From: an uncultured Syntrophaceae bacterium
GTDB taxonomy: Bacteria > Desulfobacterota > BSN033 > UBA1163
DNA length: 64,000 bases
Direction of reading: 5' to 3'
NCBI GenBank assembly: GCA_964517975.1
Contig: CAZFDM010000126.1
Coordinates: forward strand, 1,818 to 65,817
In this document: positions 10,119-57,615 of the stretch, piece after piece
Numbering within the stretch: position 1 is the stretch's first letter
Layout of the letters: each line of letters starts with the position of its first letter
Made by a program: the position numbers and the translations under genes
The notes under the pieces: generated by a model
What the model saw: only the letters and a program-made list of their open reading frames with translations
Databases searched by the model: none
Told to the model about the DNA's origin: nothing

Positions 10119-10359
10119 CCAAAGAATCCCCTTTCATAAAATGACCTGAACCATTATATCATCCCTGCTTTTTGACATGCAACCCCAATCAAGAAATAGA
10201 CCCTGTGGCGCTTTTTGCCCATGGGTAAAAATCACTTGTTTAGGTCATCAAATTCTGCTATCTATAATTATATCTGAGAGTGGAACGTAGAATGGGGGCT
10301 TGATCATAAGTTCTCTCTCTTCTACCTTCCATCTTCCAATCAAAAAGGAGGTGGGGTTC

Positions 10360-11487
10360 ATGATCACTATTCCGGCCCACAAGGTAAGGCAGTTTGGGGT
10401 AGAATTTTATCAAACCTCTTTTACCTCAAATGACATTCAGAAATTAGTAAAATTTGAGGTATTGGATTACCCGATCCTTGAGGAGGGAGCAAAAAAGAAA
10501 AAACCATCTAAATCCAGTCCCATCAATTGGGAACTTCTTGAAAAAAGGATCGGCAGAAGTGAGGCGGCCTTCCAAAGGCCCATGATTCGGAAGAAGATTA
10601 GAGAACTCGTCCAATATTATTCTGACTGCCAGGAGGCCCAGAATCTTCCTGCCATCCCAGGGGCAGTCATTATGATCACGGAGAAGCGACTCAAGTTTTC
10701 ACCTCTTGGGAAGAATCCTAATATTGGAATGCTTCAGATTCCAGAAGAATCAGGGATCCTTCGATGTCTCGATGGTCAACACAGGCTCCTGGCTCTTGGT
10801 GCAAATCCGGATAAGGCGATGGAAATAGACGTCCCTGCTGTCCTTTTTGATTCATTGGATCCCAGACAGACCGTTGAGCTTTTTGTAACCATCAACGCCA
10901 AACATACTCGCCTCAACCCCTCCCACCTCATCTCACTGGCTGGGCGAAGACTCTATGCAGATCGCTATCAGGCTTTAGCCCATGATATCATCCGTCAACT
11001 CAATGAAGAGGAAGATTCTCCACTACGCGGTGAGATAAAGATATTGGGCGTTGGGAAAGGGAAAGTCTCCCAGGCCTCTCTGGCTGATGAGATGGTCGAT
11101 CTCTTTAACACTATTGAAAAGGTAGGTGGACCTGAGCGCTTTAAAGAATTTGAGGAGAATGGGAAACGCTTCTTCAGAAACTATTTTAAAGCCATTGTGG
11201 CGATCTTCCCAAAGGCATGGGCAGGCAGGAAATACAGTATAAAGACAGGGGCAGCACTCAGGGCCTTTATCCGGGTCAGCCCAGAGGTCATGGCTCGGTC
11301 AAAAGAGTTGAAAAAAGATGCCTTTGACTATTTTGGGATAAGGGAGGCGATTAAGAATTGGGGAGATCGAATCGGGGATGAGCGATTTGAGACCGAGGGG
11401 GAATGGAAGAGGAAACTTGCTGGCGGTACCCGAGGGACGGTAGATCTTCTGTCCCGTGAACTTCGAGATGCGATGAGAGTGACTTAA
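10360..11487 (+). CDS. DGQHR-domain protein (DndB/DpdB-like), stand-alone
   Basis: literal motif LRCLDGQHRLLAL; ATG at 10360 with GGAGG RBS (track ORF begins 10300); about 375 aa as for DndB-family proteins. Confidence 0.7.
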   Translation: MITIPAHKVRQFGVEFYQTSFTSNDIQKLVKFEVLDYPILEEGAKKKKPSKSSPINWELLEKRIGRSEAAFQRPMIRKKIRELVQYYSDCQEAQNLPAIPGAVIMITEKRLKFSPLGKNPNIGMLQIPEESGILRCLDGQHRLLALGANPDKAMEIDVPAVLFDSLDPRQTVELFVTINAKHTRLNPSHLISLAGRRLYADRYQALAHDIIRQLNEEEDSPLRGEIKILGVGKGKVSQASLADEMVDLFNTIEKVGGPERFKEFEENGKRFFRNYFKAIVAIFPKAWAGRKYSIKTGAALRAFIRVSPEVMARSKELKKDAFDYFGIREAIKNWGDRIGDERFETEGEWKRKLAGGTRGTVDLLSRELRDAMRVT

Positions 11488-13516: not shown

Positions 13517-14053
13517 TTAGGATACCACGATCTCTTTTAGGGCTTCTTTATAGACGTCAAAGGTTTTGGTGTCAAAAAGGACAAATCTGACCAGTTTGAT
13601 TTCAGGATGATCTTTTAGATAGTCTCTCACAGTTGTTAAAGCAATCCGAGAGGCCTCTTCTACAGGATACCCATATACCCCTGTGCTGATGGAGGGAAAG
13701 GCAATCGAAGAGATTTTGTGTTGGGTGCAGAGTTCCAGGCTTTTTCGATAGGCGCTGGAAAGGAGTTCTGCATCTTTGGGTGATCCTGAATAGATTGGAC
13801 CTACCGCATGGATCACATACTTTGCCTTTAAGTTCCCACCTCCTGTAATCACCGCAGAACCAGTGGGGCACCCTTTATAGTTTGCCCTGAGTTCAGCCAT
13901 AATGGCCGGTCCCCCTGCCCTATGAATCGCACCATCCACTCCGCCTCCCCCTGCCAGTCGGGAGTTGGCGGCATTTCCAATGGCCTCAGTATCCTGTTGG
14001 GTGATATCACCCTGAACCACCTCTAAGGTTGATTGATGAACGGAAACCTTCAT
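13517..14053 (-). CDS. macro-domain protein (O-acetyl-ADP-ribose deacetylase, YmdB-like)
   Basis: 178 aa; GNAANSRLAGGGGVDGAIHRAGG and AFPSISTGVYGYP macro-domain motifs. Confidence 0.85.
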   Translation of the reverse strand: MKVSVHQSTLEVVQGDITQQDTEAIGNAANSRLAGGGGVDGAIHRAGGPAIMAELRANYKGCPTGSAVITGGGNLKAKYVIHAVGPIYSGSPKDAELLSSAYRKSLELCTQHKISSIAFPSISTGVYGYPVEEASRIALTTVRDYLKDHPEIKLVRFVLFDTKTFDVYKEALKEIVVS

Positions 14054-14134
14054 GACCTCCCCCCTTCTTTTTTCTACCTAAAAGAAAGAAGTAGCCTCCT
14101 CCCTGGACTCATAGTGTCTCGTAAAAGGATTTTT

Positions 14135-14743
14135 TTAAGTATTTAAAGGATTGAATAAATTTATCAAAAACCTCAAAGGCCGATGGGTCATAAACCCCAT
14201 CAAGGGCCTCCACTGGGTAATATAAAAGGCCACGATCCTCTCCCCACGTTTCGCAAAAATCACCTTAGCCTTTGCCTTCTCCTTTTTCACCGGATCCTTC
14301 CCTTCCACGGTGACTGATAGCCCTTCTTGCCCAAGGACCTGAACCTTCTTTCTCTCTAAGACTTCAAACTTTAATATGGCGTTCCAGAGAAACCTTTTAA
14401 AGAACTCCTTCTCCCTTCCCTCAAAGGTAGTTGAGCATCCAAATGGCTCCTCATCATAGGCAAAGATAGATTGGGATGGAAAAGGGCCTGGGTCTCTCCT
14501 CATAAATCCAAATGCAAACTCTCCCTCGTCCTCTCCTTCTGGCCAGAAGATATTCCAACCAAGTGGGGGTAACATAAACTCATATTCTCCCCCATAAATC
14601 ACTGTCCCCCTCGGAGTGACTTCATAGGGTTTCTTCTTCGTCTCCAAAGTGGCGCATCCCATCAGTAAAAGGAGATAGAAGATTAATAAAAATAGAGTAA
14701 GAGATTGTCTTCTCATCGTTTCTCTCCTGCTTATAAGGATCAT
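14135..14743 (-). CDS. hypothetical lipoprotein
   Basis: signal peptide with lipobox LLMGC; start overlaps stop of upstream peroxiredoxin gene; no recognised domain. Confidence 0.4.
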   Translation of the reverse strand: MILISRRETMRRQSLTLFLLIFYLLLLMGCATLETKKKPYEVTPRGTVIYGGEYEFMLPPLGWNIFWPEGEDEGEFAFGFMRRDPGPFPSQSIFAYDEEPFGCSTTFEGREKEFFKRFLWNAILKFEVLERKKVQVLGQEGLSVTVEGKDPVKKEKAKAKVIFAKRGERIVAFYITQWRPLMGFMTHRPLRFLINLFNPLNT

Positions 14744-15354
14744 TGATCTTCCTCGTTCAACTTCTTAAGGAATAGAAGGATCTCTTTGTAACGGGGAGAT
14801 CCATCCTGCACATATCGGATCACCCCTCTCTTATCAATAATGACTGTTCTTCGCGAAAAGACTGGATAGCCTTTAATCTCCAAAGAGGGTTCCACTCCAA
14901 AAGAGGCACCTAAAAACCCAGTCACATTGGAAAGAAGGGGAAAGGTTAAATCCAGACTTTTTGCCCAATATTTTAGGATAATCACATCATCTACACTGAC
15001 ACCCAGAACCCGGGCGTTGAAGCGCTCATAGAGGTAGAGATTCCTCTGATGGCCCTCCATCTCACCCGTTCAGATAGGGGTAAAGGCAGCCGGAAAGAAG
15101 GTGATGATGAGATGGTATTTCCCATAATACTCCTCTGCATAATTGATGAGTCGATCCTCGGTCGAAGGCAAGGTAAAATTCGGTGTCTCTCTTCCAACCA
15201 ACTCCATCTTCTTTTTTGCCTCTACATTGAAGCAAAGAAAGAGCAGTAAAACCATTACCCATCCCGACCACACCCAAAGTCCTTTTCTTCTCATGACAGA
15301 CCTCCTTCGAGGTTTTATAGACTTATTATAATAGGTTTTGTAAAGAGTTACCAT
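14740..15354 (-). CDS. AhpC/TSA-family peroxiredoxin with in-frame TGA (15070..15072) at the peroxidatic Cys position; candidate selenocysteine peroxiredoxin
   Basis: ORFs 15070..15354 and 14740..15060 share one frame, separated only by TGA; read-through gives FFPAAFTPI-U-TGEMEG...LGVSVDD...FPLLSN, the canonical F-T-P-x-C-T-x-E Prx motif; signal/TM N-terminus; Cys paralogue at 59443..60060. Confidence 0.6.
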
Positions 15355-15422
15355 CTGACCCTATCACAAAAATACCTTGCTAAAAAGGATTTAAGATGTT
15401 AATTTTGTTTTGGAGAAAAGAT

Positions 15423-15863
15423 ATGATTGCCTATGACCTTGTCTGTTCGAATGGCCACCTTTTTGAATGCTGGTTTAAGGATAGCACCTCCTTCGAGGAG
15501 CAGAAATCGGCAGGAATCATTAATTGTCCGATCTGCAATGACACCGATGTTGAAAAGGTCTTCTCTCCTTTTGCAATAAAAAAAGGAGAAGGAAGGAGGA
15601 AGGAAGAGGGAAGAGAGGATGGGGAGGAGAAGGGAAGAAAAGAGATAACTCTTCAACAAACCTTCCGAATGATCAATGAATATCTGGATAAGTATTTTGA
15701 GGATGTAGGCAGGAATTTTACCAAAGAGGCGCTTAAAATCCATTGGGGGGAGGCCGAGAAGAGAAATATTAAAGGGATTGCTACTCCACAAGAGGAGGCC
15801 CTTTTAAAGGAGGAAGGGGTTCCCTTTATCAAGGTTCCCATTGTGAAAAGGCTCGATAATTGA
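15423..15863 (+). CDS. DUF1178-like zinc-ribbon protein
   Basis: MIAYDLVCSNGHLFECWF...CPICN pattern typical of DUF1178; start placed at second Met of track ORF. Confidence 0.45.
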   Translation: MIAYDLVCSNGHLFECWFKDSTSFEEQKSAGIINCPICNDTDVEKVFSPFAIKKGEGRRKEEGREDGEEKGRKEITLQQTFRMINEYLDKYFEDVGRNFTKEALKIHWGEAEKRNIKGIATPQEEALLKEEGVPFIKVPIVKRLDN

Positions 15864-22901: not shown

Positions 22902-24374
22902 ATGGAAGTATATATCTCAGGCGTTGGAATGACCAGGTTTGGGAGATCAAAGGACTCGCTTGATAAAATGATGGCTGAGGCAGCAGGGTTGGCCTTAAAA
23001 GATGCTGGGTTGGAAAGAGTAGACGCCATCTATATTGGGGTCATGAATGTGGAGGAATTCGTAGGGGATTCAAATGTCGCAGCCCTTTTGACCGATACTC
23101 TTCATCTCACTGGCCTTCCTTCCACTCGTGTGGAAACCGCTTCTTCTACAGGGGCAGGAGCGTTTGAGGCCGCCTTTTATGCGGTTGCCTCAGGTTATAT
23201 GAAAGAGGTTCTGGTCCTTGCTGGGGAGAAGATGAGTCACCTTCCTACTCCCAAGGTCACCCAAATCCTCTCTGAAGTGATTGATCGCTCCGAAAGGAGA
23301 TATGGTGCAACCATGCCTGCATTGGCAGCACTGATCGCCCAAAGGTATGCCAAGCAGTACGGTCTCTCTCCCTCTTTGCTTGAAGACATTCTTTCCCATG
23401 TAGCTATCAAAAACCACTCCAATGGATTTCTCAATCCAAATGCCCAATTCAAAAAAAGGATTACCAAAGAGGACTATCTAAAGAGTCAGATGGTTTCCTT
23501 TCCTTTGCGGCTTTATGATTGTGCACCCATTTCGGATGGAGCAGCCGCGATGGTACTCACTTCAAAACCTACCCCCGTAATCGTTTCCGGAATTGGTCAT
23601 GCCACAGATACCATGGCAGTTAGACATCGTGCTTCCCTCACTTCGTTCAATTCAACCAAAGAGGCCGCCCGAAGGGCCTACAGCATGGCAAAGGTCAATC
23701 CTTCAGAAATTCAGTTTGCGGAGGTTCATGATGCCTTCACCCCTTTTGAGATCATCGGGACAGAGGATCTGGGTTTTTTCTCCCCCGGAGAGGGATGGAA
23801 GGCCTTAAAAGAAGGCTTAACTGAACTGAGAGGAAAACTACCCATCAATCCATCTGGTGGATTGAAATCAAGAGGACATCCTGTGGGAGCCTCTGGCCTT
23901 GCTCAACTCGTGGAGATTGTTTACCAACTAAGAGGGGAAGCAGGGAACGAAAGGCAACTGAAACGGGCAGAGGTTGGCTTGGCCCAAAGCACAGGAGGAT
24001 TGGGGAATAACAACTTCGTTACCATCCTTGAACGAACCGATCGAAAAAGGGTAAAGGTGGGAGGTTGGGAATTGGAATATCATCCGGAGACTCCTATCCC
24101 AGAAAAAACCTCTGAAGGCCCTCCTGTCGAAGGGATGGGGGCTCTCGAAACCTTTACCATCCTTCATTCCCCCCCCCAAGGATTTCTATCACCCCTGGCC
24201 CTTGCCTTTGTCAAAAGGGGAGATGGAAAGAGGGTGATGGCGTGCAATCCTAACTACCGATCTCCGAAGAAACTAAAGATAGGAAAAGTGGTTTTTTTAA
24301 GGGTTCAAGAAGGACTTTATGTCTTTGAAAAATTAACCTTCTGGAAACGCTTGAAGCACTGGCTTAAGAGGTAA
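22902..24374 (+). CDS. thiolase-domain protein fused to C-terminal DUF35-type OB-fold domain
   Basis: N-terminal 390 aa thiolase-like (SCP2/archaeal type: VETASSTGAGAF, CAPISDGAAAMVL, NPSGGL..GHPVGASG); last ~100 aa PPQGF..PLALAFV..G.RVMA pattern of DUF35. Confidence 0.65.
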   Translation: MEVYISGVGMTRFGRSKDSLDKMMAEAAGLALKDAGLERVDAIYIGVMNVEEFVGDSNVAALLTDTLHLTGLPSTRVETASSTGAGAFEAAFYAVASGYMKEVLVLAGEKMSHLPTPKVTQILSEVIDRSERRYGATMPALAALIAQRYAKQYGLSPSLLEDILSHVAIKNHSNGFLNPNAQFKKRITKEDYLKSQMVSFPLRLYDCAPISDGAAAMVLTSKPTPVIVSGIGHATDTMAVRHRASLTSFNSTKEAARRAYSMAKVNPSEIQFAEVHDAFTPFEIIGTEDLGFFSPGEGWKALKEGLTELRGKLPINPSGGLKSRGHPVGASGLAQLVEIVYQLRGEAGNERQLKRAEVGLAQSTGGLGNNNFVTILERTDRKRVKVGGWELEYHPETPIPEKTSEGPPVEGMGALETFTILHSPPQGFLSPLALAFVKRGDGKRVMACNPNYRSPKKLKIGKVVFLRVQEGLYVFEKLTFWKRLKHWLKR

Positions 24375-25392
24375 TGATTTGGGCCATCTGGCCTGCATAG
24401 ATGACAATATACCGCATGGCAAACCCACCGATGAGGACAGAGGTTGTGATCACGCCAGAAATCCAGGGGTTGTGCTCTCTCAATTCTCCATGCCAGATGT
24501 AATGAGGGATCAATTCGTAAACCTCCAAAGAAAGAGGAAGAAGAATACCTACCCCGACCACAAGGGTCCAGAAAAGAAGAGTAAACTCACCTCCCATAAT
24601 GAGATGAACCGCGGCCACTGAACTTCGGGGTGAAACGTATAAGCCCAGGATAAAAAGGAAGACAGCAATGATTGAAAAGACCATAAGGGTAAAATCAATG
24701 GAATGAATCATAAATTTATTCGTATTGATGTTCTCCCGGCTCATTCCCCGAAAACCTTTGACAAAGCATCCTACAAAACAGATGGCAGCCGAGCCGGTCA
24801 TCATTGCAGAGATTAAGAATAACATTGGGAGCATTGGATTATTCCAGAAGGGTCGGGCAGTGAGCGCCCCTAAAAGGACGCCGGTATAGATTCCAACTCC
24901 TATGGAGATAGGGATTCCAAACCCTGCAGTCAATCCCCGGATCGTAGTGAGGTTTTCTCCTCTGAACCGACTTAAAAATCGGTTTGATTGGATTCGAGGA
25001 ATAATTCTTAAATAATCAAATTTCTCAGGAAGCCAGAGATAGAAATGAGCGAAACTAAACAGGGAGAAAAAGAGAAGAAGCCAAGCCCCAAGAGACATGA
25101 CTGAATTGGGTTGGAAGGTAAGGAATAATTTCCAGAAAAGATGGGGTCTTTCAAGATCGTAGATCAAGGCAATGATCCCAACGAGGACTGGAAAGGGAGC
25201 AATATAGGCTCCAATCCTCGTCATGGTCTCGTATCGTTCGCGGCCAAGAAAATAGGCCGTTGCGGAGATAATGAAAGCTCCAGCGCTTAGGCCTGCTGCA
25301 AAGAGATCAATGGCTACAATCCAATTCCAGATGATATGTATCGTCCCTTCCACCTTAAACTCCTTAATAGCCTTTACGGGCACGCGACACAC
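24364..25392 (-). CDS. NrfD/PsrC-family polytopic membrane anchor of molybdoenzyme complex
   Basis: 342 aa, 8+ predicted TM segments, last gene of psr-like operon. Confidence 0.65.
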   Translation of the reverse strand: MCRVPVKAIKEFKVEGTIHIIWNWIVAIDLFAAGLSAGAFIISATAYFLGRERYETMTRIGAYIAPFPVLVGIIALIYDLERPHLFWKLFLTFQPNSVMSLGAWLLLFFSLFSFAHFYLWLPEKFDYLRIIPRIQSNRFLSRFRGENLTTIRGLTAGFGIPISIGVGIYTGVLLGALTARPFWNNPMLPMLFLISAMMTGSAAICFVGCFVKGFRGMSRENINTNKFMIHSIDFTLMVFSIIAVFLFILGLYVSPRSSVAAVHLIMGGEFTLLFWTLVVGVGILLPLSLEVYELIPHYIWHGELREHNPWISGVITTSVLIGGFAMRYIVIYAGQMAQIITS

Positions 25393-25456
25393 CTGCTCGC
25401 GCCCAGGGTCAGGGTTGCGCTTTCCTTCGATCCGTCGCCGACGAATCTTTCTAACT

Positions 25457-25714
25457 TCAGCCCCCTCCTATTTTGGGGACAAAGGAAGGATCTGCTTTCC
25501 CCATGGAGGCATCCCGATAGAGGGTAGGAGTATCCTTCCAATAACTTAACTCAATGGGTTCCTCTACTTTCTCTTGACCGCTTGTGAGATTCCAAAGGTT
25601 TTCCTGATTCCCAAATGCTTGAGATTTCTCCTTCTGCTTACATCCGATCAAAAGGAATAATCCTCCAAGAGTGAGGGCCTCAAATAACCTCTGGATAAAT
25701 TTCCTTCGTTCCAT
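25457..25714 (-). CDS. small Tat-signal lipoprotein candidate
   Basis: internal Met of track ORF 25457..25810 gives MERRKFIQRLF..LLIGC: twin-arginine motif plus lipobox; overlaps torD-like stop by 35 nt; purine-rich SD. Confidence 0.3.
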   Translation of the reverse strand: MERRKFIQRLFEALTLGGLFLLIGCKQKEKSQAFGNQENLWNLTSGQEKVEEPIELSYWKDTPTLYRDASMGKADPSFVPKIGGG

Positions 25715-26339
25715 CACTCCTCTTCTCCAATCTCTCTTTTTCTTTTTGGATGAAAAGATGAAGAACCTCCATGAGGCTCCAATAAAATGGATGGGCATTT
25801 GCCCTTTCACACGCTCCCTTAAGAAAAGGGATCCAATTGAGATGATCCTTTATAAACCTCTCAATGACTTCATCCCCTGCTCCTTGATAGAGATAAGCCA
25901 AAAACTCCAGTTCAATGATCAGATGATCCGGCATTCCCTTAAAGGAATCTGAGACCTCTATCCCCCATTGTTGAAAAAGGGTTGAAAGGTGAATGGCTGA
26001 ATCGCCCATCAGAAACCCCTTCTCTTTTGCAAAAGGAAGACAGCAATGAGGGTCTTGGGTCCAGGGCTTATAAAAAGACTCCACCAATGAAATTCTCTCC
26101 CCACCCGTATCGGAGAAGAGTCGGTAATACTCCTCCTTTAAATCCTTCAAAAGGATTTGGGAAGGCGATTCAGGCAAAAACCCTTTTAAACATCCGATCT
26201 CCCCTTCGAAAAATTGGACATAGGCCTTAAAAAAGGAATAGAGGTGACCTTGAGTTAACTGCTCCACCATTTCCTGATCCGGAGGGCAGAAAAGAGACGA
26301 AACGACTTTACAAAAAAAGGCTTTCTCTTTATGAGGCAT
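25680..26339 (-). CDS. TorD/DmsD-family molybdoenzyme maturation chaperone
   Basis: 219 aa, sits between psrB-like and membrane subunit, TorD-like helical pattern (EYYRLF, FLAYL). Confidence 0.6.
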   Translation of the reverse strand: MPHKEKAFFCKVVSSLFCPPDQEMVEQLTQGHLYSFFKAYVQFFEGEIGCLKGFLPESPSQILLKDLKEEYYRLFSDTGGERISLVESFYKPWTQDPHCCLPFAKEKGFLMGDSAIHLSTLFQQWGIEVSDSFKGMPDHLIIELEFLAYLYQGAGDEVIERFIKDHLNWIPFLKGACERANAHPFYWSLMEVLHLFIQKEKERLEKRSDGTKEIYPEVI

Positions 26340-26344
26340 TCCTG

Positions 26345-26884
26345 CTATCCCCTTTTATAGTAAATTCTTGGTTTGGTGTTGAGTTCTGCCTTAAACTGTT
26401 TCAACTTATGTTTAATAATGTATTGGGAGATCTCACTATTGGGATCATCCAGATCTCCAAACATCCTTACCCCGGTCATACAGGTCGTCACACATGCTGG
26501 CTTTTCACCCTTTTCAACAAACTCAATACAGAACCGACATTTTTCAATATAACCCTCTTTTTTAATGATTCGAACATTATAGGGACAGGCGGCAATACAA
26601 TACTTACAGCCGATGCATTTATTCTTATCTACCAAGACTACCCCGTCCTTCCTTTTGTGGGAGGCTCCAGTAGGACAAACTTTGACACAAGGAGGGTTAT
26701 CACAATGCTGACACTGGACAGGTAAGAATTCTCTTGTATAGTTGGGAAAACTTCCATATTCTCTTTCTTCGAGATGGTTATAGGCCTCCTTTTCTTCAAG
26801 GCTGTTCTGATTATGGCAGGCCACACGGCAAGCATGGCAACCCACACATTTTGTTTCATCAATCACCATTCCATATCGAGCCAT
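26345..26884 (-). CDS. 4Fe-4S ferredoxin-type subunit of molybdopterin oxidoreductase (PsrB/DmsB-like)
   Basis: four CxxCxxCxxxCP clusters in 179 aa. Confidence 0.85.
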   Translation of the reverse strand: MARYGMVIDETKCVGCHACRVACHNQNSLEEKEAYNHLEEREYGSFPNYTREFLPVQCQHCDNPPCVKVCPTGASHKRKDGVVLVDKNKCIGCKYCIAACPYNVRIIKKEGYIEKCRFCIEFVEKGEKPACVTTCMTGVRMFGDLDDPNSEISQYIIKHKLKQFKAELNTKPRIYYKRG

Positions 26885-26950
26885 AACTCACCAAATTTCA
26901 GATTGTGAATTTTAGAGTTAAATCTTATTTTTTAGGCTTTGCTCTATGCC

Positions 26951-29143
26951 CTATGCCTTATTCACTTGAACCACAATTTCCGATGCCATCACATGTCCTA
27001 CCGTTGGATCGAAATAAGTTGGAAGAAAATCGTTATAGGAGAGCCCAATATCATAAGCCGTTTTTAAATGTTTTGAGAAAATCCCATAACCGCTCGGAAG
27101 CCATACACAGGAGGGATGGATCCCCTCAATGAGACGGACTCGGATTCTCCCCTCACCGACTAAAGATTTAATCCTTACCCAATCCCCATCTTTAAGACCT
27201 AACTGCTCCCCTCTCTTTTTATTCATCCATAGTCGAATCAAATCATACCGGTGGCTCAATGCCATGAGGATGGGTTGATTGGCTGTCATGGAGTGAGTAT
27301 GGATCGCCTGTTTTCCATGGAGCAGTCGAAAGGAATGAGGATCCTTCGGATCAGGTGAAACCAAGGGTTCCTCCCACCTTGGAATGGGTGGGATCTCTAA
27401 ACGGTCCAAGGTTCGACAATAAATCTCAACCTTTCCTGAGGGAGTATTTAACTTATCGAATCCCTCCTTCCATTTCTCTCCTACAAATAGGACACCTTTC
27501 TCCTTCAACTGCTCAAGGGTCACGCCTAAAGGTTTGAGTCTGAGCCGATTGGCTTCCTCAATATCAAAACTGAAATACTTGCCCACCCCTAAATGCTTTG
27601 CCAATTCAATGATAATCTGAGTCCCAGGTCGAGTATCGAAGAGAGGTTTGACCACCTGTTGTTGAAGGCTCACCTGAGCCCTCTTTCCACTATGTTTTGT
27701 ATCGATTGCTTCGGTTCTCTCCAAGTAGAAGGATTCAGGTAAGACATAATGGGCTATGGAAGCGGTTTCAGAAAGAACGGTATCGATCACCACCAAGAGT
27801 TCAAGTTTTTTATAGCCTGCAATCACTCTCTTTGGATTTGGATTGGTCCGAAGGGGATTATAATGATACACGAATCCAGCTTTCAATTCCCCCCGAAGTG
27901 CCAATTCTGGAATGGCATGGGCAATCCCATCTCCATAGCTTCCCAAGGGATACCTCCCTGGCACCCCCGTTCCATCCAGTTTACCTATTGTGGGAAGTTC
28001 AGGTGCAGGGTGTTTAGGTTGAAGCTCCCCAAGATTTGCAGTCTTCGGGAAATAGATTCCTCCCTCTCGGTTAAGATTTCCTAAAAGACTATTGACAATG
28101 GCTAAGGCTCGAGCAGTCTGAAAACTATTCAGATATTGGGCTCCGAAGGCCCCATGGTAACCTCTATGGATAAGGGCTTTAGGTTTAACCTGAGCCATCT
28201 CACGGGTGATTCGTATAATCGTTTGCGATGGAATCTCACAAACCTTTTCAGCCCACTCCGGGGGATAATTGATAATCTGTTCCTCCAATTGTTCAAAGCC
28301 CACGGTTTTTTCTGCTACAAATTTCTTATCATATAACTCTTCTTTCACCATCACATTGATCATGGCTAAAAGGAGGGCTAAATCAGTTCCCGGTTTTATC
28401 GGAAGCCATTCATCAGCGAGGATGGCTGTTTCACTGTGTCTCGGATCCACAACCACCAGTTTGGCTCCTTTGGATTTAGCCTCTACGATTCTTTTCATCT
28501 GACCCAGATCAATACCCCCCGCGGGATTACGTCCAATAATCACAATATACCGAGAATTTGATAGATCGTTTGAAGGGAGTTCTCCAACAGTGTATACCCA
28601 ACCTGCATTTCTTGCCGTATAACAGGTAGATCCGTGGGTAAAATAGTGGGGACTCCCCAAGGCATGCATGAATCTTAATGCATAAAGATGGTTTGGCTGT
28701 GGGTAATTGACCCAGAAGATACTTTGAGGGCCATGTTCCAACATAAGGAGATTAATTTTTTGGGAAATCTCTTGATAGGCTTGCTCCCAGGAGATAGGTT
28801 CGAAACGGCTCCCTACTCTTTTTAAAGGGCTTTTAATCCGGTCGGGATTATATAAGTCATGAAGATATCCGTGTCCCTTGGGGCATACAACGCCTAAATT
28901 CCCATTGGCCTCTGGATTCCCTTCGATCTTCCAAAGCCTTCCGTTCTTCACATAGGCATAAATCCCGCATCGATTCCCACATCCATTACAGATTGTAGGG
29001 ACACGAGTGATCGGAGATTCAACCGATGCCTCAACCCATTTCTTAAAATCTATCCATTCGTTCTTAAGGGCGAGAGCACCAGCAGTCCCACCTGCTACTT
29101 TTAGGAAACCTCTTCTTGTAAGCCTAAGAGGGAAACGCTCCAT
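26951..29143 (-). CDS. Tat-exported molybdopterin oxidoreductase catalytic subunit (polysulfide/thiosulfate/tetrathionate reductase-like)
   Basis: RRGFLKVAGG twin-arginine signal, CNGCGNRCG Fe-S motif, 730 aa. Confidence 0.8.
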   Translation of the reverse strand: MERFPLRLTRRGFLKVAGGTAGALALKNEWIDFKKWVEASVESPITRVPTICNGCGNRCGIYAYVKNGRLWKIEGNPEANGNLGVVCPKGHGYLHDLYNPDRIKSPLKRVGSRFEPISWEQAYQEISQKINLLMLEHGPQSIFWVNYPQPNHLYALRFMHALGSPHYFTHGSTCYTARNAGWVYTVGELPSNDLSNSRYIVIIGRNPAGGIDLGQMKRIVEAKSKGAKLVVVDPRHSETAILADEWLPIKPGTDLALLLAMINVMVKEELYDKKFVAEKTVGFEQLEEQIINYPPEWAEKVCEIPSQTIIRITREMAQVKPKALIHRGYHGAFGAQYLNSFQTARALAIVNSLLGNLNREGGIYFPKTANLGELQPKHPAPELPTIGKLDGTGVPGRYPLGSYGDGIAHAIPELALRGELKAGFVYHYNPLRTNPNPKRVIAGYKKLELLVVIDTVLSETASIAHYVLPESFYLERTEAIDTKHSGKRAQVSLQQQVVKPLFDTRPGTQIIIELAKHLGVGKYFSFDIEEANRLRLKPLGVTLEQLKEKGVLFVGEKWKEGFDKLNTPSGKVEIYCRTLDRLEIPPIPRWEEPLVSPDPKDPHSFRLLHGKQAIHTHSMTANQPILMALSHRYDLIRLWMNKKRGEQLGLKDGDWVRIKSLVGEGRIRVRLIEGIHPSCVWLPSGYGIFSKHLKTAYDIGLSYNDFLPTYFDPTVGHVMASEIVVQVNKA

Positions 29144-29161
29144 ATTTCAGATTCTTTTTTA

Positions 29162-29204
29162 GGGGAGATAGATTTATAAAATGGATTTGCTTCTCTATCT
29201 CCCC
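29162..29204 (-). promoter_or_regulatory. 10-bp stem hairpin between rhodanese and psrA genes (intra-operon structure)
   Basis: ggggagatag...(23 nt)...ctatctcccc; no U-tract in mRNA sense; a weak GG-N10-GC sigma-54-like element overlaps it. Confidence 0.3.
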
Positions 29205-29210
29205 TCATTT

Positions 29211-29669
29211 TTATCTTTCTACGGGATAACCGGCCTTTACCCATTCCTCAAAGTGAGCATCCATAAGAACAGCCTGTTTGTAACCCATTTCGTTCAGAGT
29301 CTTTGTGGCCAGGGCTGATCGGGCAGCAGTGAGGCAATAGACATAGATTTTAGCCTCCTTATCTTGAATCTTATCCCAGATCACAAATTCCAACTTTCCA
29401 CGAGAGACATTGATCGCTCCTGGGAGATGACCTGCCTTAAACTCATCTGGATCTCTGACGTCAAGGATGTAGGCCTTCTCTTTTTTATCAATGGCGGCCT
29501 TCACATCAGCCGGAGTAACCTTCTTGATCTCCGCCTTTGCCTTTGCGACCCAATCCTTAACGACTGTGGTTGTCCAGGTAGGGACTTTCGGCTTATCCTG
29601 AGCCAATGAGAGGCTAACCATTGAAAGAACGAAAACCCATGCTAATATCCAAACCCAAACTTTCTTCAT
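29211..29669 (-). CDS. periplasmic single-domain rhodanese (Sud-like polysulfide-sulfur transferase)
   Basis: signal peptide, rhodanese fold with active-site loop YCLTAARS, directly upstream of psrA. Confidence 0.7.
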   Translation of the reverse strand: MKKVWVWILAWVFVLSMVSLSLAQDKPKVPTWTTTVVKDWVAKAKAEIKKVTPADVKAAIDKKEKAYILDVRDPDEFKAGHLPGAINVSRGKLEFVIWDKIQDKEAKIYVYCLTAARSALATKTLNEMGYKQAVLMDAHFEEWVKAGYPVER

Positions 29670-47298: not shown

Positions 47299-47556
47299 AT
47301 GAAATCTCAAATTACCATCCGGTTGCCCGAGGATCTTGAGGAAGACTTGAACGAGATGAGCCGGAAGTTTCGGTTAAAACGCTCGGATATTGTTCGCATG
47401 GCCCTTGAGAAGTTTGCCAGAGAATTCAAGGGGGCCGAAACCGAAAGACCCTACGAAAAGGTTGCGGATGTGATCGGAACGATTTCAAGCGGTCTCCCTG
47501 ATCTCGGAGAGGCCCATAGAAAGTATCTTTTAAAAAGGATGAGGGGCCATGCGTAA
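47299..47556 (+). CDS. vapB: ribbon-helix-helix antitoxin (VapB/CopG-like)
   Basis: ITIRLPEDLEEDLNEMSRKF RHH N-terminus; overlaps toxin gene by 8 nt (ATGCGTAA). Confidence 0.7.
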   Translation: MKSQITIRLPEDLEEDLNEMSRKFRLKRSDIVRMALEKFAREFKGAETERPYEKVADVIGTISSGLPDLGEAHRKYLLKRMRGHA

Positions 47557-47962
47557 CCTTATCCTCGATACGGGACCTTTTGTTGCCTTGCTCGATTCGA
47601 GTGAGAGGAACCATGGGCGGTGCGTCCGTTTCCTTAAGGAGTTTCACGGCCAGATTTTTACGACGGAACCGGTATTGACGGAGGTAATGTATCTTCTCGG
47701 TCCCTCCATCAGGGACCAGAGGGCAGCGATGGAATTTATTTTAAGAGGTGGGGCTACCCTGGTTCCCCAATCGTTAAACAGTCTAAAAAGGGCAATGGCA
47801 TTCATGGAGAAATATAAAGATGTCCCAATGGATTTCGCCGATGCCACTCTTGTGACGCTTGCGGAGGAGATGGGAATCTCTGAAATATTTTCATTGGATA
47901 CAAAAGGTTTCAGCACCTATCGGATCCATGGGAAAAAACCCTTTAAAATATGGCCACAATAA
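47549..47962 (+). CDS. vapC: PIN-domain toxin
   Basis: ILDTGPFVALLD...acidic PIN residues; 137 aa. Confidence 0.8.
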   Translation: MRNLILDTGPFVALLDSSERNHGRCVRFLKEFHGQIFTTEPVLTEVMYLLGPSIRDQRAAMEFILRGGATLVPQSLNSLKRAMAFMEKYKDVPMDFADATLVTLAEEMGISEIFSLDTKGFSTYRIHGKKPFKIWPQ

Positions 47963-47965
47963 TGG

Positions 47966-49616
47966 GTGAGAGGGATGGCGACGCTCCATTTTAAAGGTAA
48001 AACTTTTGTCCAGAATCATCATTTGACGGTGAAGTATCACCAGCTCATCCCGAAGAAGGATAAGAGTTTAACGGACAAAGTTAGCCTTAACGATAACCTC
48101 ATTATCCATGGTGATAATCTCAAGGCCCTAAAGGCCCTTCTTCCCACTTATGCCGGTAAGGTGAAATGTATTTACATTGATCCACCTTATAACACCGGAA
48201 ATGAAAGATGGGTCTATAACGACAATGTCAACAGTCCGATGATGCAGGAGTGGCTTGGAAAGGTTGTTGACAGGGAAGATTTGACCCGCCACGACAAATG
48301 GCTCTGCATGATGATGCCGCGGTTGAAACTGCTGAGGGAGTTGTTGAGAGATGATGGAATAATCTTTGTGAGCATTGATGATAATGAAGTTCACCACTTA
48401 AGAATGCTGATGGATGAGGTGTTTCAAGAAGAGAATTTTAGAAATTTAATAGTTGTTCGAAGAGGTGTAAAAAGTGTTCAGGGTCAATTTGAAAGCATTG
48501 ATAAATTAGCAGAGGGTACAGAGTATGTTTTGGTTTATACGAAAAGTAAAGATTTTCGATTGAATCAATTCTTTATTGAGTTGTTTGAAACGCGACAAGG
48601 AACATGGAATAACCATTGGCGTGGAACAGATAGGCCGACTATGAGATATGAGTTGTTTGGAATTATTCCTTCAACTGGCCAGTGGCGGTGGAGCCGAGAG
48701 AGAAGCTTAAAAGCCATTGAGAATTATAAAAATTTACTTAAAGAATTTAAGAAAAATGGTTTATCAATTACTCAAAAAGAAATTGATGAATACTACTTAA
48801 AAAAAACTTGCAGAGGGAGATGATCTTGATCTATTAAGACTTTCAAGTACTGGGAAGCCAGAACATTATGTACCACCTTCTGATTACAAACTTGGAAGTA
48901 CAATGTGGACTGATTTACTTGCAAATCGCACAAAGGAAATTGTTGATATATTCGGAATGAAAGTCTTTGAGAATCCAAAATCAATTATGCTTCTCAAAAG
49001 ATTATTTGGCTTAGCGGGGGTAAATAGAGATAGTATTATCTTAGATTCTTTCGCAGGCTCTGGCACAACGGCTCACGCTGTTTTGGATTTGAATAAAGAG
49101 GATGGTGGCAATCGGAAGTTTATACTCGTTGAATGTGAGGATTATGCAGATAAAATAACTGCTGAAAGAGTAAGGCGGGTGATTAAAGGAGTTAAAAACG
49201 CAAAGGATGAGAAATTACGAGAAGGCCTTGGAGGGACATTCAGCTATTTTGAACTCGGCGACCCCATTGAGATGGAGAGCATTCTTGAAGGAGATAAATT
49301 ACCGAGTTACCTTGACCTTGCGCGATATGTTTTTTATACAGCTACTGGGGAAGAATTCGATCCTAAGAAGGTAAATGAAAAAAATAACTTCATAGGAGAA
49401 TCAAGAGAATATGAAGTCTATTTGTTTTATAAGCCTGACATTGATTATCTGAAATCGACCGCCCTGACGCTTGACAAGGCAAAAGAATTAGGTTCTTACA
49501 AAGGTAAGAGGCGTCTTGTCTTTGCCCCGAGTAAATATCTCGATACGGATTATCTTTTAGAGTATCGGATAGATTACTGCCAGTTACCTTTTGAGATTTA
49601 TAAGTTAAGGGAATAG
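47966..49616 (+). pseudogene. mod: Type III restriction-modification methyltransferase (Mod) split into two ORFs by +1 frameshift at A8 tract 48799..48806
   Basis: N-part has motif IV DPPYN; C-part (48903..49616) has motif I FAGSGTT; removing one A of the A8 run joins them in frame through LKKLAEGDDLDLLRLSSTGKPEHYVPPSDYKLGST. Confidence 0.7.
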
Positions 49617-49617
49617 A

Positions 49618-49878
49618 ATGCCAGAGATTAGTAGGTTTTTTGGTATCATCATCGCGATGTTCCATCGTGAACATTATCCACCACATTTCCACGCAAGGTA
49701 TGGAAGTTATATGGCATCGATCAGAATAGAAGATCTCGCAGTAGTTGAGGGGTATCTTCCTCCAAGAGCATTGGGGCTTGTTATGGAATGGGCTTATATG
49801 CATAAAGAGGAGCTTCTAAATGATTGGAAATTAGCAATGGAAAGAAAACCTCTTCTCCCGATCGAGCCGTTAAAGTAA
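49618..49878 (+). CDS. DUF4160-family protein
   Basis: 86 aa, GIIIAMFHREHYPPHFHARYG pattern. Confidence 0.55.
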   Translation: MPEISRFFGIIIAMFHREHYPPHFHARYGSYMASIRIEDLAVVEGYLPPRALGLVMEWAYMHKEELLNDWKLAMERKPLLPIEPLK

Positions 49879-49890
49879 GGAGGTGGCTTT

Positions 49891-50199
49891 ATGTACTACG
49901 ATGTGATTGAAGCAAGGTATATCGAAGGCTATAAACTGGAACTTACTTTCGAGAATGGGAAAAAAGGGGTCGTCGATTTTAAAGATTATGTAAAATTAGG
50001 AGGGGTTTTCAGCCGTTTTTCTGATCTTGAGTATTTCAAACAATTTTATATCAATAAAGAGTTAGGTGTTTTATGCTGGCCCGATGAGGTGGATATTGCT
50101 CCGGAGACACTCTATAGCGAGGCAACCGGCGAGCCATTGCCTTCATGGATGATTCCCAAAATAGATGAAGAGAAACCAGAGAAGGCAGTAGTCCTATAA
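49891..50199 (+). CDS. DUF2442-family protein
   Basis: 102 aa, YKLELTFENGKKGVVDF pattern; stop 3 nt before res start. Confidence 0.55.
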   Translation: MYYDVIEARYIEGYKLELTFENGKKGVVDFKDYVKLGGVFSRFSDLEYFKQFYINKELGVLCWPDEVDIAPETLYSEATGEPLPSWMIPKIDEEKPEKAVVL

Positions 50200-50201
50200 T
50201 T

Positions 50202-57602: not shown

Positions 57603-57615
57603 AAAGGAGGAAGGA

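What the first reader, a model, noticed from the sequence alone, without database searches (positions are those of the whole stretch)
14740..15354. Peroxiredoxin with in-frame TGA exactly at the peroxidatic cysteine codon: candidate selenocysteine-Prx
Seen in sequence: the minus-strand ORFs 15070..15354 and 14740..15060 share one frame and are separated only by TGA at 15070..15072. Read-through gives ...HLIITFFPAAFTPI-[TGA]-TGEMEGHQRNLYLYERFNARVLGVSVDD...FPLLSN..., a complete exported AhpC/TSA peroxiredoxin. The TGA falls on the Cys of the invariant T-P-x-C / C-T-x-E active-site motif. A Cys paralogue in the same window (59443..60060) reads WTPVCSDQ at the same place. TGA is used as a normal stop by many genes here (this gene's own end, the oxidoreductase at 12733 and others), so code 25 or other recoding is excluded. 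Established knowledge: Sec-containing peroxiredoxins (PrxU-type) exist, and Cys/Sec paralogue pairs are typical of selenoproteomes. Inference: this is a selenoprotein and not a nonsense pseudogene. The 60 nt of mRNA after UGA contain small hairpins (GAUGG-AGGG-CCAUC at +9..+22; CAUCAGAGG-AAUCUCUA-CCUCUAUG at +20..+43) that could be a bacterial SECIS, but I cannot fold them reliably by eye.
Basis: partly seen in the sequence, partly recalled or inferred. Interest (0 to 1): 0.8.

Follow-up and report, generated by a model that had tools for sequence, protein, structure and literature searches.

The report
Selenocysteine peroxiredoxin with lipoprotein partner
The apparent stop codon inside this exported peroxiredoxin gene is almost certainly a selenocysteine codon, kept in all 80 related species examined and followed by conserved RNA hairpins, so this is a routinely mis-annotated member of a known class of selenoproteins.

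Summary
A minus-strand AhpC/TSA peroxiredoxin gene (14740..15294) carries an in-frame TGA (15070..15072) exactly at the peroxidatic Cys of the PxxxTxxC motif.

It is not a pseudogene:
- All 84 related loci, including 80 different species genomes at 52-86% protein identity, have TGA there and none has TGC or TGT.
- Both halves of the protein are conserved.
- Synonymous sites just after the TGA are frozen.
- The mRNA after the TGA folds far better than synonymous recodings (-29.8 versus -10.9 +/- 3.4 kcal/mol, 0 of 2000).

Two adjacent hairpins, both showing compensatory base changes, follow the UGA. The second has a canonical SECIS loop (N-G-U-N-N) but lies 60 nt downstream. That becomes 18 nt if the 42-nt first hairpin is discounted.

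The mature protein has no cysteine at all, so it is a "1-Sec" enzyme closest to AhpE/BCP, not PrxU. It has a signal peptide. It is translationally coupled (ATGA) to a Mog1/PsbP-fold lipoprotein gene that is co-conserved in 83 of 84 loci.

selA, selB, selC and selD are absent from the window and could not be sought elsewhere in the genome.

Verdict: a new member of a known kind, of moderate interest.

The parts
14740..15294 (-). Selenoperoxiredoxin gene: 184 codons including one Sec codon, ending at stop TGA 14740..14742.
   Evidence: Translation. Pfam AhpC-TSA E 1.9e-21. Orthologues in 84 loci. Best solved relatives are Bcp4 (3hjp) and AhpE (1xvw).
15301..15305 (-). Shine-Dalgarno GGAGG, 6 nt before ATG 15294.
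   Evidence: Read directly from the sequence.
15217..15294 (-). Predicted Sec-type signal peptide MRRKGLWVWSGWVMVLLLFLCFNVEA|KKK. It holds the only Cys of the protein.
   Evidence: Judged by eye from the n/h/c regions and V-E-A at -3..-1, so this is an inference. In 78 orthologues all Cys lie in this N-terminal hydrophobic segment.
15070..15072 (-). UGA selenocysteine codon at the peroxidatic position (P-A-A-F-T-P-I-U).
   Evidence: TGA in 84 of 84 loci, no TGC or TGT. It aligns with the peroxidatic Cys of AhpE and Bcp4.
15018..15059 (-). Hairpin 1, nt 14-55 counted from the U of UGA. About 15 bp with a C25 bulge. The apical helix is 26-30/39-43 and the loop is AAYCUYUA (15035..15042).
   Evidence: It is the MFE structure in at least 69 of 74 orthologues. 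Pair 30:39 is GC 65, AU 9. Pair 18:51 is GC 74, AU 3. Gly-codon position 21 is coupled to Glu/Asp-codon position 48. Synonymous sites in the stems are fixed while those in the loops vary freely.
14999..15017 (-). Hairpin 2, nt 56-74. A 7-bp stem (56-62/68-74) plus the pair 63:67. The loop is S-G-U-N-S (15006..15010), which is the canonical bacterial SECIS loop pattern.
   Evidence: No broken pair in the 7-bp stem across 78 sequences. Pair 58:72 is GC 54, AU 17, GU 7. Pair 62:68 is GU 39, GC 29, AU 10. Pair 63:67 is CG 32, GC 20. It out-competes the alternative lower stem 5-10/57-62, which has 10-41 mismatches per pair.
14109..14743 (-). Partner gene: a lipoprotein with a Mog1/PsbP-like fold. 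Its ATG overlaps the peroxiredoxin stop (ATGA). The window copy has a 1-nt deletion at 14203/14204 that shifts the frame for the last 30 residues or so.

Best explanation
Gene 14740..15294 (minus strand) encodes an exported peroxiredoxin whose peroxidatic residue is selenocysteine.

Shown:
- The in-frame UGA sits at the catalytic position of an intact AhpC/TSA fold and is kept in every orthologue found.
- It is followed by two adjacent conserved RNA hairpins that show compensatory changes.
- The mature protein contains no cysteine.
- The gene is always followed by a lipoprotein gene of Mog1/PsbP-like fold, usually through an ATGA overlap.

Inferred mechanism:
- When the UGA reaches the ribosomal A site, about 10 nt of spacer fill the mRNA channel. 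Hairpin 1 (nt 14-55) stays folded at the channel entrance.
- Because the two ends of hairpin 1 lie side by side, hairpin 2 (nt 56-74, loop N-G-U-N-N) is placed where the E. coli fdhF mini-hairpin sits. The effective distance from UGA to the loop is 18 nt.
- SelB carrying GTP and Sec-tRNA(Sec) binds the loop of hairpin 2 and delivers Sec, out-competing release factor 2.
- The gene's own terminal UGA has no such signal and is read as stop. It also overlaps the partner's ATG, which allows translational coupling.
- The protein is exported by its signal peptide and works in the periplasm as a '1-Sec' peroxidase: Se- is oxidised to Se-OH by a peroxide. With no resolving Cys, the Se-OH must be reduced by an external thiol. 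Candidates are an exported TlpA/ResA-like CxxC protein such as the one at 58868..59431, or a small thiol.
- The membrane-anchored partner lipoprotein has no conserved Cys. It probably tethers or scaffolds the enzyme at the membrane and does not transfer electrons.
For: Conservation of the UGA:
- TGA is at the peroxidatic position in 84 of 84 loci, 80 of them distinct species genomes at 52-86% identity.
- All 120 best database proteins are 102-115-aa C-terminal fragments. Gene callers therefore truncate at the same place in hundreds of relatives.
- Protein identity is 66% over the 45 residues upstream of U and 73% downstream.

Peroxiredoxin identity:
- Pfam AhpC-TSA matches over the full profile length.
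- U aligns with the peroxidatic Cys of AhpE, and the catalytic Arg aligns as well.

RNA signal:
- MFE is -29.8 kcal/mol against -10.9 +/- 3.4 for 2000 synonymous recodings. The most stable 66-nt stretch of the gene starts at the TGA.
- Normalised synonymous entropy is 0.275 for codons +4..+18 and 0.78 elsewhere in the gene (Mann-Whitney p = 1.3e-4).
- In the two-hairpin structure 94% of cells are paired and 5 pairs show double changes. The covariation score is 0.115 against 0.071 in shuffles (0 of 500 reach it) and at most 0.056 in the slid controls.
- The loop of hairpin 2, S-G-U-N-S, matches the published bSECIS loop pattern (PMC13188914, Fig. 2).

Support from relatives:
- A close relative carries, on the same contig, a second selenoprotein gene (Trx-like, G-U-x-K-C). 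Its SECIS is a short GC stem with a G-first triloop, present in Sec forms (96% of cells paired) and absent in Cys forms (53%).
- The one full-length Cys homologue found (TGT) has lost most of the hairpin stability (-10 kcal/mol).
- Peroxiredoxin with a TxxU motif is an established bacterial selenoprotein family. Syntrophus and Geobacter are Sec users (PMC1794560 Table 3; PMC13188914).

Genetic code and partner:
- TGA is an ordinary stop in this window (13 of 53 long ORFs).
Against: - No selA, selB, selD or tRNA-Sec lies in the 64-kb window. The rest of the genome could not be read.
- Neither hairpin meets all four constraints of the published bSECIS model. Hairpin 1 has no G in the first two loop positions. 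The loop of hairpin 2 starts 60 nt after the UGA, whereas the model allows 16-37 nt.
- No Rfam family matches.
- G64-U65 are also the first two bases of an invariant Val codon, so their invariance alone does not show a constraint at the RNA level.
- The compensatory changes are counted over related sequences and may reflect only a few evolutionary events.
- Export, the peroxidase activity, the reductant and the partner's role are all inferences.
- The window's copy of the partner gene is frameshifted.
Confidence: 0.92

Rival explanations
1. Hairpin 1 alone is the SECIS. It would be a non-canonical class whose AAYCUYUA loop, or an internal bulge, is what SelB recognises. Hairpin 2 would then be an accessory element, for example a ribosome pause site or an mRNA-stability element.
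For: The base of hairpin 1 is at nt 14, where the E. coli fdhF mini-hairpin begins. Its loop lies 27 nt after the UGA, inside the 16-37 nt range. It is the most stable element and shows covariation and synonymous-site suppression. The review notes that some bSECIS elements do not fit the consensus.
Against: [quoted passage not shown] The other selenoprotein gene on the relative's contig uses a short stem with a GGA or GUC loop. That resembles hairpin 2, not hairpin 1, and a genome normally has a single SelB.
Confidence: 0.3
2. Nonsense pseudogene, or two separate small genes: a 74-94-aa N-terminal peptide and a 106-aa C-terminal protein, as public annotation has it.
For: Gene callers annotate the two pieces separately. 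The window does contain at least one true frameshift, in the neighbouring partner gene.
Against: The same TGA is present in 84 of 84 loci spanning 52-100% identity, with both halves conserved. The split falls in the middle of one thioredoxin-fold domain, exactly at the catalytic residue. No ribosome-binding site precedes the internal ATG. The RNA structure is under selection.
Confidence: 0.01
3. The UGA is read through, but not as Sec. It could be decoded as Cys or Trp by near-cognate or suppressor decoding, or under a reassigned genetic code.
For: Two distant database peroxiredoxins show W at this position (P0289, P0291). These were probably translated with a TGA=Trp table.
Against: TGA ends 13 of 53 long ORFs here, including this gene itself. 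A dedicated, conserved RNA signal follows only this UGA. The position is the redox-active residue, where Sec/Cys exchange is the known pattern. Trp or Gly there would kill catalysis.
Confidence: 0.03
4. It is a selenoprotein, but its physiological role is not peroxide removal. It could be, for example, a periplasmic thiol/selenol oxidoreductase or a sensor acting on, or with, the partner lipoprotein.
For: No resolving Cys and no adjacent reductase. It is always paired with a non-redox scaffold protein. The only Cys-form relative has lost the catalytic Thr and Pro yet keeps the partner.
Against: The full peroxidatic signature PxxxTxxU plus the catalytic Arg is invariant in all Sec forms. 1-Cys peroxiredoxins such as AhpE are true peroxidases (this last point is my own knowledge, not a tool result).
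Confidence: 0.12

Closest known systems
Bacterial selenoprotein family 'Peroxiredoxin (Prx)', motif TxxU, PF00578 (Zhang et al. 2006, PMC1794560; review PMC13188914)
   Same: AhpC/TSA fold. Sec replaces the peroxidatic Cys in PxxxTxxU. It occurs in anaerobic Deltaproteobacteria/Thermodesulfobacteriota such as Syntrophus and Geobacter. Several independent Cys-to-Sec origins are documented for the family.
   Different: This clade was found only in metagenome-assembled genomes. It has the signature U-TGEMEGHQRNLYLY, no Cys in the mature protein, a signal peptide, an obligate lipoprotein neighbour and a two-hairpin signal. Whether the catalogued Geobacter and Syntrophus proteins belong to this clade could not be checked. 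No isolate genome appeared among the 80 species hits.
PrxU of Eubacterium (Peptoclostridium) acidaminophilum (Sohling et al. 2001; NCBIfam NF040737)
   Same: The experimentally shown Sec-containing peroxiredoxin, with Sec at the peroxidatic position.
   Different: Not the same subfamily: 42.7 bits against a cut-off of 270. As far as I recall, PrxU is a cytoplasmic protein of a Firmicute.
Mycobacterium tuberculosis AhpE (Rv2238c; PDB 1xvw, 4x0x) and archaeal Bcp4 (3hjp)
   Same: These are the best solved homologues (E 4e-15 to 8e-16). They share the fold and an active-site context (AFTGIC / AAFTSV) that aligns with AAFTPIU, and the catalytic Arg aligns too. AhpE is likewise a 1-Cys enzyme with no resolving Cys.
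   Different: They have Cys, not Sec, and are cytoplasmic. No partner lipoprotein is known for them. Sequence identity is only moderate.
E. coli fdhF SECIS and the bacterial SECIS consensus (Zhang & Gladyshev model, as given in PMC13188914 Fig. 2)
   Same: A stem-loop in the coding sequence directly after the UGA. The loop of hairpin 2, N1-G-U-N-N2 with N1:N2 often paired, and its 7-8-bp GC-rich stem fit the consensus. If hairpin 1 is discounted, the UGA-to-loop distance is 18 nt, the same as in fdhF by my numbering from memory (G23/U24).
   Different: A 42-nt hairpin with compensatory changes lies between the spacer and the canonical hairpin. The linear distance is therefore 60 nt, outside the 16-37 nt range. 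There is no bulged U.
Mog1/PsbP-fold proteins (Mog1 1jhs, LpqN 6e5d, PsbP 2xb3, DcrB 6e8a)
   Different: Sequence identity is 5-13%. There is no Pfam match. None of these is known to pair with a peroxiredoxin.

Membership tests
Peroxiredoxin (AhpC/TSA, PF00578) | Sequence match above the curated Pfam threshold over the whole domain | tested here: met
   76.7 bits against a cut-off of 26; profile positions 1-124 of 124.
Peroxiredoxin (AhpC/TSA, PF00578) | Active-site motif PxxxTxxC(U), with the peroxidatic residue at the aligned position, plus the conserved catalytic Arg | tested here: met
   P-A-A-F-T-P-I-U. U aligns with the Cys in FTGIC of AhpE. The first R of SRRTVIID aligns with the R of ANRGTFVVD in AhpE. 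The motif is invariant in 78 orthologues.
Peroxiredoxin (AhpC/TSA, PF00578) | Peroxidase activity | not testable with these tools
   Needs purified protein.
Bacterial selenoprotein (UGA decoded as Sec) | In-frame UGA at a position where homologues have a redox-active Cys | tested here: met
   Cys stands at this position in the window paralogue, in AhpE and other solved peroxiredoxins, and in P0243 and other full-length database homologues.
Bacterial selenoprotein (UGA decoded as Sec) | The UGA and the reading frame on both sides of it are conserved among orthologues | tested here: met
   TGA in 84 of 84 loci. Mean identity is 66% upstream and 73% downstream.
Bacterial selenoprotein (UGA decoded as Sec) | selA, selB, selC (tRNA-Sec) and selD present in the same genome | not testable with these tools
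   None lies in the 64-kb window or in the fetched flanks. The rest of the genome is not available. Indirect support comes from a second selenoprotein gene on a close relative's contig and from the literature on the lineage.
Bacterial selenoprotein (UGA decoded as Sec) | Selenium incorporated into the polypeptide | not testable with these tools
   Needs 75Se labelling or mass spectrometry.
Bacterial SECIS consensus (PMC13188914 Fig. 2): hairpin 1, nt 14-55 | Apical loop of 3-9 nt, upper stem of 4-16 bp, 16-37 nt between UGA and loop, MFE <= -7.5 kcal/mol | tested here: met
   The loop is 8 nt, the stem about 15 bp, the spacing 27 nt, and the MFE -17.8 kcal/mol for nt 14-55.
Bacterial SECIS consensus (PMC13188914 Fig. 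2): hairpin 1, nt 14-55 | At least one G in the first two loop positions | tested here: not met
   The loop is A-A-Y-C-U-Y-U-A. Positions 31 and 32 are A in 79 of 79 sequences.
Bacterial SECIS consensus (PMC13188914 Fig. 2): hairpin 2, nt 56-74 | Loop of 3-9 nt with the pattern N1-G-[G/U]-N-N2, and a stem of 4-16 bp | tested here: met
   The loop is S63-G64-U65-N66-S67, and 63:67 pairs in 53 of 78 sequences. The 7-bp stem has no broken pair.
Bacterial SECIS consensus (PMC13188914 Fig. 2): hairpin 2, nt 56-74 | 16-37 nt between the UGA and the apical loop | tested here: not met
   The linear distance is 60 nt. It falls to 18 nt only if the 42-nt hairpin 1 is treated as a closed insertion, which is an inference.
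PrxU (NCBIfam NF040737 equivalog) | Score at or above the curated cut-off | tested here: not met
   42.7 bits against 270.
BCP/PrxQ thiol peroxidase (NCBIfam NF006960) | Score at or above the cut-off, and a resolving Cys five residues after the peroxidatic Cys (CxxxxC) | tested here: not met
   52.2 bits against 140. The sequence is U-T-G-E-M-E, with Glu at +5. No Cys occurs in any mature orthologue.
Mog1/PsbP-like fold (partner protein) | Structural superposition on members of the fold | tested here: met

The most novel reading that the evidence does not exclude
The recoding signal is a split, or 'interrupted', bacterial SECIS. A canonical SelB-binding mini-hairpin (GC stem, N-G-U-N-N loop) has been moved 42 nt downstream by an inserted hairpin that itself shows compensatory changes. 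Because the ends of that inserted hairpin lie together, the fdhF-like 18-nt geometry is restored. Signals of this kind fall outside the 16-37 nt rule used by current bacterial SECIS predictors. In addition, the enzyme and its always-adjacent Mog1/PsbP-fold lipoprotein would form a previously undescribed two-component periplasmic selenoperoxidase module that contains no cysteine at all.
Probability: 0.35. Interest if true: 0.6.

Novelty: new member of a known kind. Interest (0 to 1): 0.42.

Why it matters
Practical value: hundreds of public database entries for this protein are C-terminal stubs of about 106 aa named 'peroxiredoxin Q/BCP' or 'redoxin domain-containing protein'. No curated NCBIfam model covers the clade. 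A simple rule, the motif FTP[IV]-TGA-ACN-GGN-GAR-ATG-GAR-GGN-CAY-CAG, would repair those annotations.

Biological value:
- It is a natural peroxiredoxin whose only redox-active chalcogen atom is selenium, and it is exported to the periplasm of strict anaerobes.
- This makes it a clean system for asking what Sec provides that Cys does not, and how a selenenic acid is recycled with no resolving thiol.
- The strictly co-inherited, translationally coupled lipoprotein points to a partner-dependent mode of action that has not been described for peroxiredoxins.
- If hairpin 2 is the SelB site, the 16-37 nt spacing limit in bacterial SECIS predictors will miss selenoprotein genes of this type.

Tried and rejected
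- **Rfam.** Neither the gathering-threshold scan of the whole window nor the permissive scan of 14950..15120 gave a SECIS or other credible RNA family.
It fits the G-in-loop rule, but the loop lies only 13 nt after the UGA. Its folding energy is only -1.7 to -4.6 kcal/mol, depending on whether the 12:25 pair is counted. Pair 12:25 is broken in about half of the sequences. It shows no compensatory change and competes with the well-supported hairpin 1. Rejected as the main element.
- **Long lower stem 5-10/57-62**, which is the MFE of the isolated 66-nt stretch. It has 10-41 mismatched sequences per pair and loses to hairpin 2, which uses the same 3' bases. Rejected.
- **Pairing of the UGA itself with UCAG at nt 74-77.** Considered. 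There is no variation to test it, and G73/U74 are explained by hairpin 2. Left open. C75 remains unexplained.
- **Sec machinery.** ARAGORN on the window and on 60 loci found no tRNA-Sec. Pfam scans of about 55 window ORFs found no SelA, SelB or SelD. This is uninformative for a 64-kb piece of a genome.
- **Other in-frame TGA genes in the window.** A scan for read-through candidates with at least 40 codons on each side found only this one credible case.
- **A redox role for the partner.** Rejected because its internal Cys is not conserved: C in 30 sequences, Y in 32.
- **Conserved third genes**, such as a reductase next to the pair. None was found. Only the lipoprotein is co-conserved across both clades.
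- **Promoter and terminator scan** of 13900..15500. Nothing above chance.
Full report
**1. The observation**

- On the minus strand, one reading frame runs from ATG 15354 or, more plausibly, ATG 15294 to TGA 14740..14742. ATG 15294 has a GGAGG 6 nt upstream. The frame is interrupted only by TGA at 15070..15072.
- The read-through product is MRRKGLWVW...FFPAAFTPI-[TGA]-TGEMEGHQRNLYLYERFNARVLGVSVDD...EEDQ.
- It matches Pfam AhpC-TSA over the whole profile (E 1.9e-21).
- The TGA aligns with the peroxidatic Cys of solved peroxiredoxins. The best hits are Sulfolobus Bcp4 (3hjp) and M. tuberculosis AhpE (1xvw and others). The catalytic Arg also aligns.
- The Cys paralogue at 59443..60060 is 30% identical and reads WTPVCSDQ.
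- TGA is an ordinary stop in this window: 13 of 53 long ORFs, against 26 TAA and 14 TAG.

**2. Pseudogene or recoding?**

- A search of 5.8 billion proteins returned 772 relatives. All 120 best hits (79-97% identity) are stubs of 102-115 aa that begin at the Met just after the TGA. Gene callers therefore stop at the same place everywhere.
- The exact C-terminal fragment occurs on several metagenome contigs with the same split.
- A scan of one genome per GTDB species returned 80 loci at 52-86% protein identity. They come from uncultured Syntrophaceae, 'Deltaproteobacteria'/Thermodesulfobacteriota, Geobacteraceae, Desulfuromonadales, Trichloromonas and Deferrisomatales.
- Every locus has TGA at this codon, making 84 of 84 when the four same-strain copies are included. 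None has TGC or TGT.
- Protein identity to the window is 66% on average over the 45 residues before the TGA and 73% after it.
- A nonsense mutation cannot be inherited unchanged across this range while both halves stay under purifying selection. The pseudogene reading is excluded.

**3. The RNA after the UGA**

Positions are counted from the U of UGA as nt 1, so window coordinate = 15073 - n.

- The first 66 nt fold to -29.8 kcal/mol. 2000 synonymous recodings of the same 21 codons, drawn with the window's codon usage, give -10.9 +/- 3.4 and none reaches the observed value. The most stable 66-nt stretch of the whole gene starts at the TGA.
- Across the orthologues, normalised synonymous-site entropy is 0.275 for codons +4..+18 and 0.78 elsewhere in the gene (p = 1.3e-4).
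- The few freely varying third positions inside the region (nt 12, 33, 36) are the ones that fall in unpaired segments.

Two helices are supported.

- **Hairpin 1 (nt 14-55; 15018..15059).**
  - It is the MFE structure in at least 69 of 74 sequences.
  - Pair 30:39 switches from G-C (65) to A-U (9), and pair 18:51 from G-C (74) to A-U (3).
  - The third base of a Gly codon (nt 21, C/U) is coupled to the third base of the Glu/Asp codon (nt 48, G/C) in 67 of 73 sequences. This is a register-shift pairing.
  - The loop is AAYCUYUA.
- **Hairpin 2 (nt 56-74; 14999..15017).**
  - It follows hairpin 1 with no linker.
  - Its 7-bp stem has no broken pair in 78 sequences.
  - Pair 58:72 is G-C 54, A-U 17, G-U 7. 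Pair 62:68 is G-U 39, G-C 29, A-U 10. The loop-closing pair 63:67 is C-G 32, G-C 20.
  - The A-U cases at 58:72 couple an Ala/Thr replacement to a synonymous Gly position, and there is no A·C combination.
- For the two-hairpin structure as a whole, 94% of cells are paired. The covariation score is 0.115, against 0.071 in shuffles (0 of 500 reach it) and at most 0.056 when partners are slid.
- One caveat applies: the sequences are related, so the cells counted are not independent events.
- The long lower stem predicted for the isolated 66-mer (5-10/57-62) is poorly kept. It is replaced by hairpin 2.

**4. Which hairpin is the SECIS?**

- The published bacterial consensus has four constraints (PMC13188914, Fig. 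2):
  - a 3-9-nt loop on a 4-16-bp stem;
  - a G in the first two loop positions, mostly in the pattern N1-G-[G/U]-N-N2;
  - 16-37 nt between the UGA and the loop;
  - an MFE of -7.5 kcal/mol or lower.
- Hairpin 1 meets all of these except the G rule.
- Hairpin 2 has exactly the consensus loop (S-G-U-N-S, often GGUC), but it lies 60 nt from the UGA.
- Subtracting the 42 nt of hairpin 1 leaves 18 nt. By my numbering from memory (G23/U24), that is the distance in E. coli fdhF.
- An independent clue comes from a close relative (peroxiredoxin fragment 87% identical). On the same contig, about 9 kb away, it carries a second candidate selenoprotein, a 77-aa Thioredoxin_3-type protein with G-U-A-K-C (L086 661..894).
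  - In 80 metagenome loci of that family the codon is TGA in 51 and TGT/TGC in 23.
  - The Sec forms carry a 6-bp GC stem with a GGA loop (GUC in two), starting 20 nt after the UGA. 96% of cells are paired, against 53% in the Cys forms.
- The SelB of this lineage therefore appears to read a short GC stem with a G-first small loop. That is what hairpin 2 looks like.
- I favour hairpin 2 as the SelB site, with hairpin 1 as a closed insertion that sits at the mRNA entrance. This is an inference, at roughly 55-60% confidence. The alternative, that hairpin 1 is a non-canonical SECIS, is kept as a rival.
- No Rfam family matches either hairpin.

**5. The protein**

- None of the 78 orthologues has a Cys outside the N-terminal hydrophobic segment. 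The mature enzyme therefore has Sec as its only redox-active residue and no resolving Cys. The position five residues after U, where BCP/PrxQ has its second Cys, is Glu.
- No NCBIfam model reaches its cut-off: PrxU 42.7 against 270, and BCP 52.2 against 140. The protein is a peroxiredoxin but belongs to neither of these curated subfamilies. By sequence it is closest to the 1-Cys AhpE group.
- The N-terminus looks like a Sec-type signal peptide (MRRK, a hydrophobic core, then VEA|K). This was judged by eye.
- In a library of 1.84 billion 50%-identity representatives, only 84 proteins match the C-terminal half. Most of these are again stubs.
- The single full-length Cys relative is P0243, at 55% identity. 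It reads FIANAFGPNC, so it has lost the catalytic Pro and Thr. It uses TGT, folds to only -10 kcal/mol in the equivalent region, and is still followed by the partner gene.

**6. The partner**

- The next gene (14109..14743) starts at an ATG that overlaps the peroxiredoxin stop (ATGA). The same overlap occurs in 75 of 82 loci.
- A homologue lies directly downstream in 83 of 84 loci. The one exception is cut off by a contig end.
- All other neighbours change between clades.
- The protein has a lipobox in 72 of 76 sequences and no other conserved Cys. It has no Pfam match. 558 database relatives were found, and every one of the 120 best that carries a source name is called 'hypothetical protein'.
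- The window's copy has a 1-nt deletion at 14203/14204 relative to the otherwise identical contig L001. The deletion shifts the frame for the last 30 residues or so.

**7. What could not be tested**

- No tRNA-Sec, SelA, SelB or SelD lies in the window or in the fetched flanks.
- Support for the Sec trait is indirect. It rests on the comparative evidence above, the second selenoprotein gene in a relative, and the literature. That literature lists Syntrophus aciditrophicus (19 selenoproteins, including a peroxiredoxin) and Geobacter species (8 each) as Sec users, and lists peroxiredoxin with TxxU as an established selenoprotein family with several independent Cys-to-Sec origins (PMC1794560 Tables 1 and 3; PMC13188914).

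**8. Verdict**

This is a real selenoprotein gene of a known kind, a Sec-peroxiredoxin.
- It belongs to a clade that is uniformly truncated in public annotation and is covered by no curated model.
- Features beyond the known pattern:
  - no cysteine in the mature protein;
  - export to the periplasm;
  - an obligate, translationally coupled Mog1/PsbP-fold lipoprotein partner;
  - a two-hairpin recoding signal in which the canonical loop lies 60 nt from the UGA.
- I rate it a new member of a known kind and of moderate interest. The interrupted-SECIS reading is the most novel possibility still open.

Noticed in passing
window 14203..14204 (minus-strand gene 14109..14743): A 1-nt deletion relative to the otherwise identical metagenome contig L001 (GGCCC-TTGATGG against GGCCCATTGATGG). 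It shifts the frame of the partner lipoprotein's last 30 residues or so. This is either an assembly indel or a real mutation in this strain.
   Followed up: yes
window 54923..56258 (minus): An RlmD/TrmA-like RNA methyltransferase is split into two overlapping ORFs: TRAM domain at 55593..56258 and the methyltransferase at 54923..55672. This is probably another frameshift in an A-rich run, which suggests indel errors in this assembly.
   Followed up: partly
L086 661..894 (TGA at 691); related loci L089-L168: A second candidate selenoprotein on a close relative's contig, about 9 kb from the peroxiredoxin. It is a 77-aa Thioredoxin_3-type protein with GMG-U-AKC. In metagenome loci 51 copies have TGA and 23 have TGT/TGC. 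The Sec forms carry a canonical SECIS (6-bp GC stem, GGA loop, 20 nt after the UGA) that the Cys forms lack. This gene is not present in the window.
   Followed up: partly
L085 799..1359 (protein P0243): The only full-length Cys-form relative found. It uses TGT and its motif has decayed to FIANAFGPNC, with the catalytic Pro and Thr lost. The RNA hairpins are mostly lost, yet it is still followed by the same lipoprotein partner. It comes from a single 1.6-kb contig.
   Followed up: partly
window 57117..60060 (plus): An oxidative-stress island: a Fur/PerR-family regulator, rubrerythrin, a Tpx-like thiol peroxidase (58347..58871), an exported TlpA/ResA-like thioredoxin-fold protein with CPHC (58868..59431), and the exported Cys-peroxiredoxin paralogue (59443..60060). 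The CPHC protein is a candidate periplasmic reductant for both peroxiredoxins.
   Followed up: partly
window 24364..29669 (minus): A polysulfide/thiosulfate-reductase-like operon: rhodanese, a molybdopterin oxidoreductase (730 aa, with no in-frame TGA), a 4Fe-4S subunit, a TorD-like chaperone and NrfD. A sigma-54 two-component system lies upstream.
   Followed up: no
proteins P0289 and P0291: Two distant database peroxiredoxins show Trp at the peroxidatic position (FTPVW, FTSVW). These are most likely TGA codons translated with a TGA=Trp table, which would make them further unrecognised Sec-peroxiredoxins.
   Followed up: no
window 14998 (nt 75 after the U of UGA): The third base of the Val codon just 3' of hairpin 2 is C in 78 of 79 orthologues (GTC), although it is synonymous and lies outside both helices. 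Unexplained. It may stack on hairpin 2 or take part in a further contact.
   Followed up: no
window 10300..11487 and 47549..52718: A DndB-like protein (associated with DNA sulfur modification). Separately, a PIN-domain gene followed by what looks like a type III restriction-modification set: two N6/N4 methylase ORFs, which may be one split gene, and a ResIII helicase.
   Followed up: no
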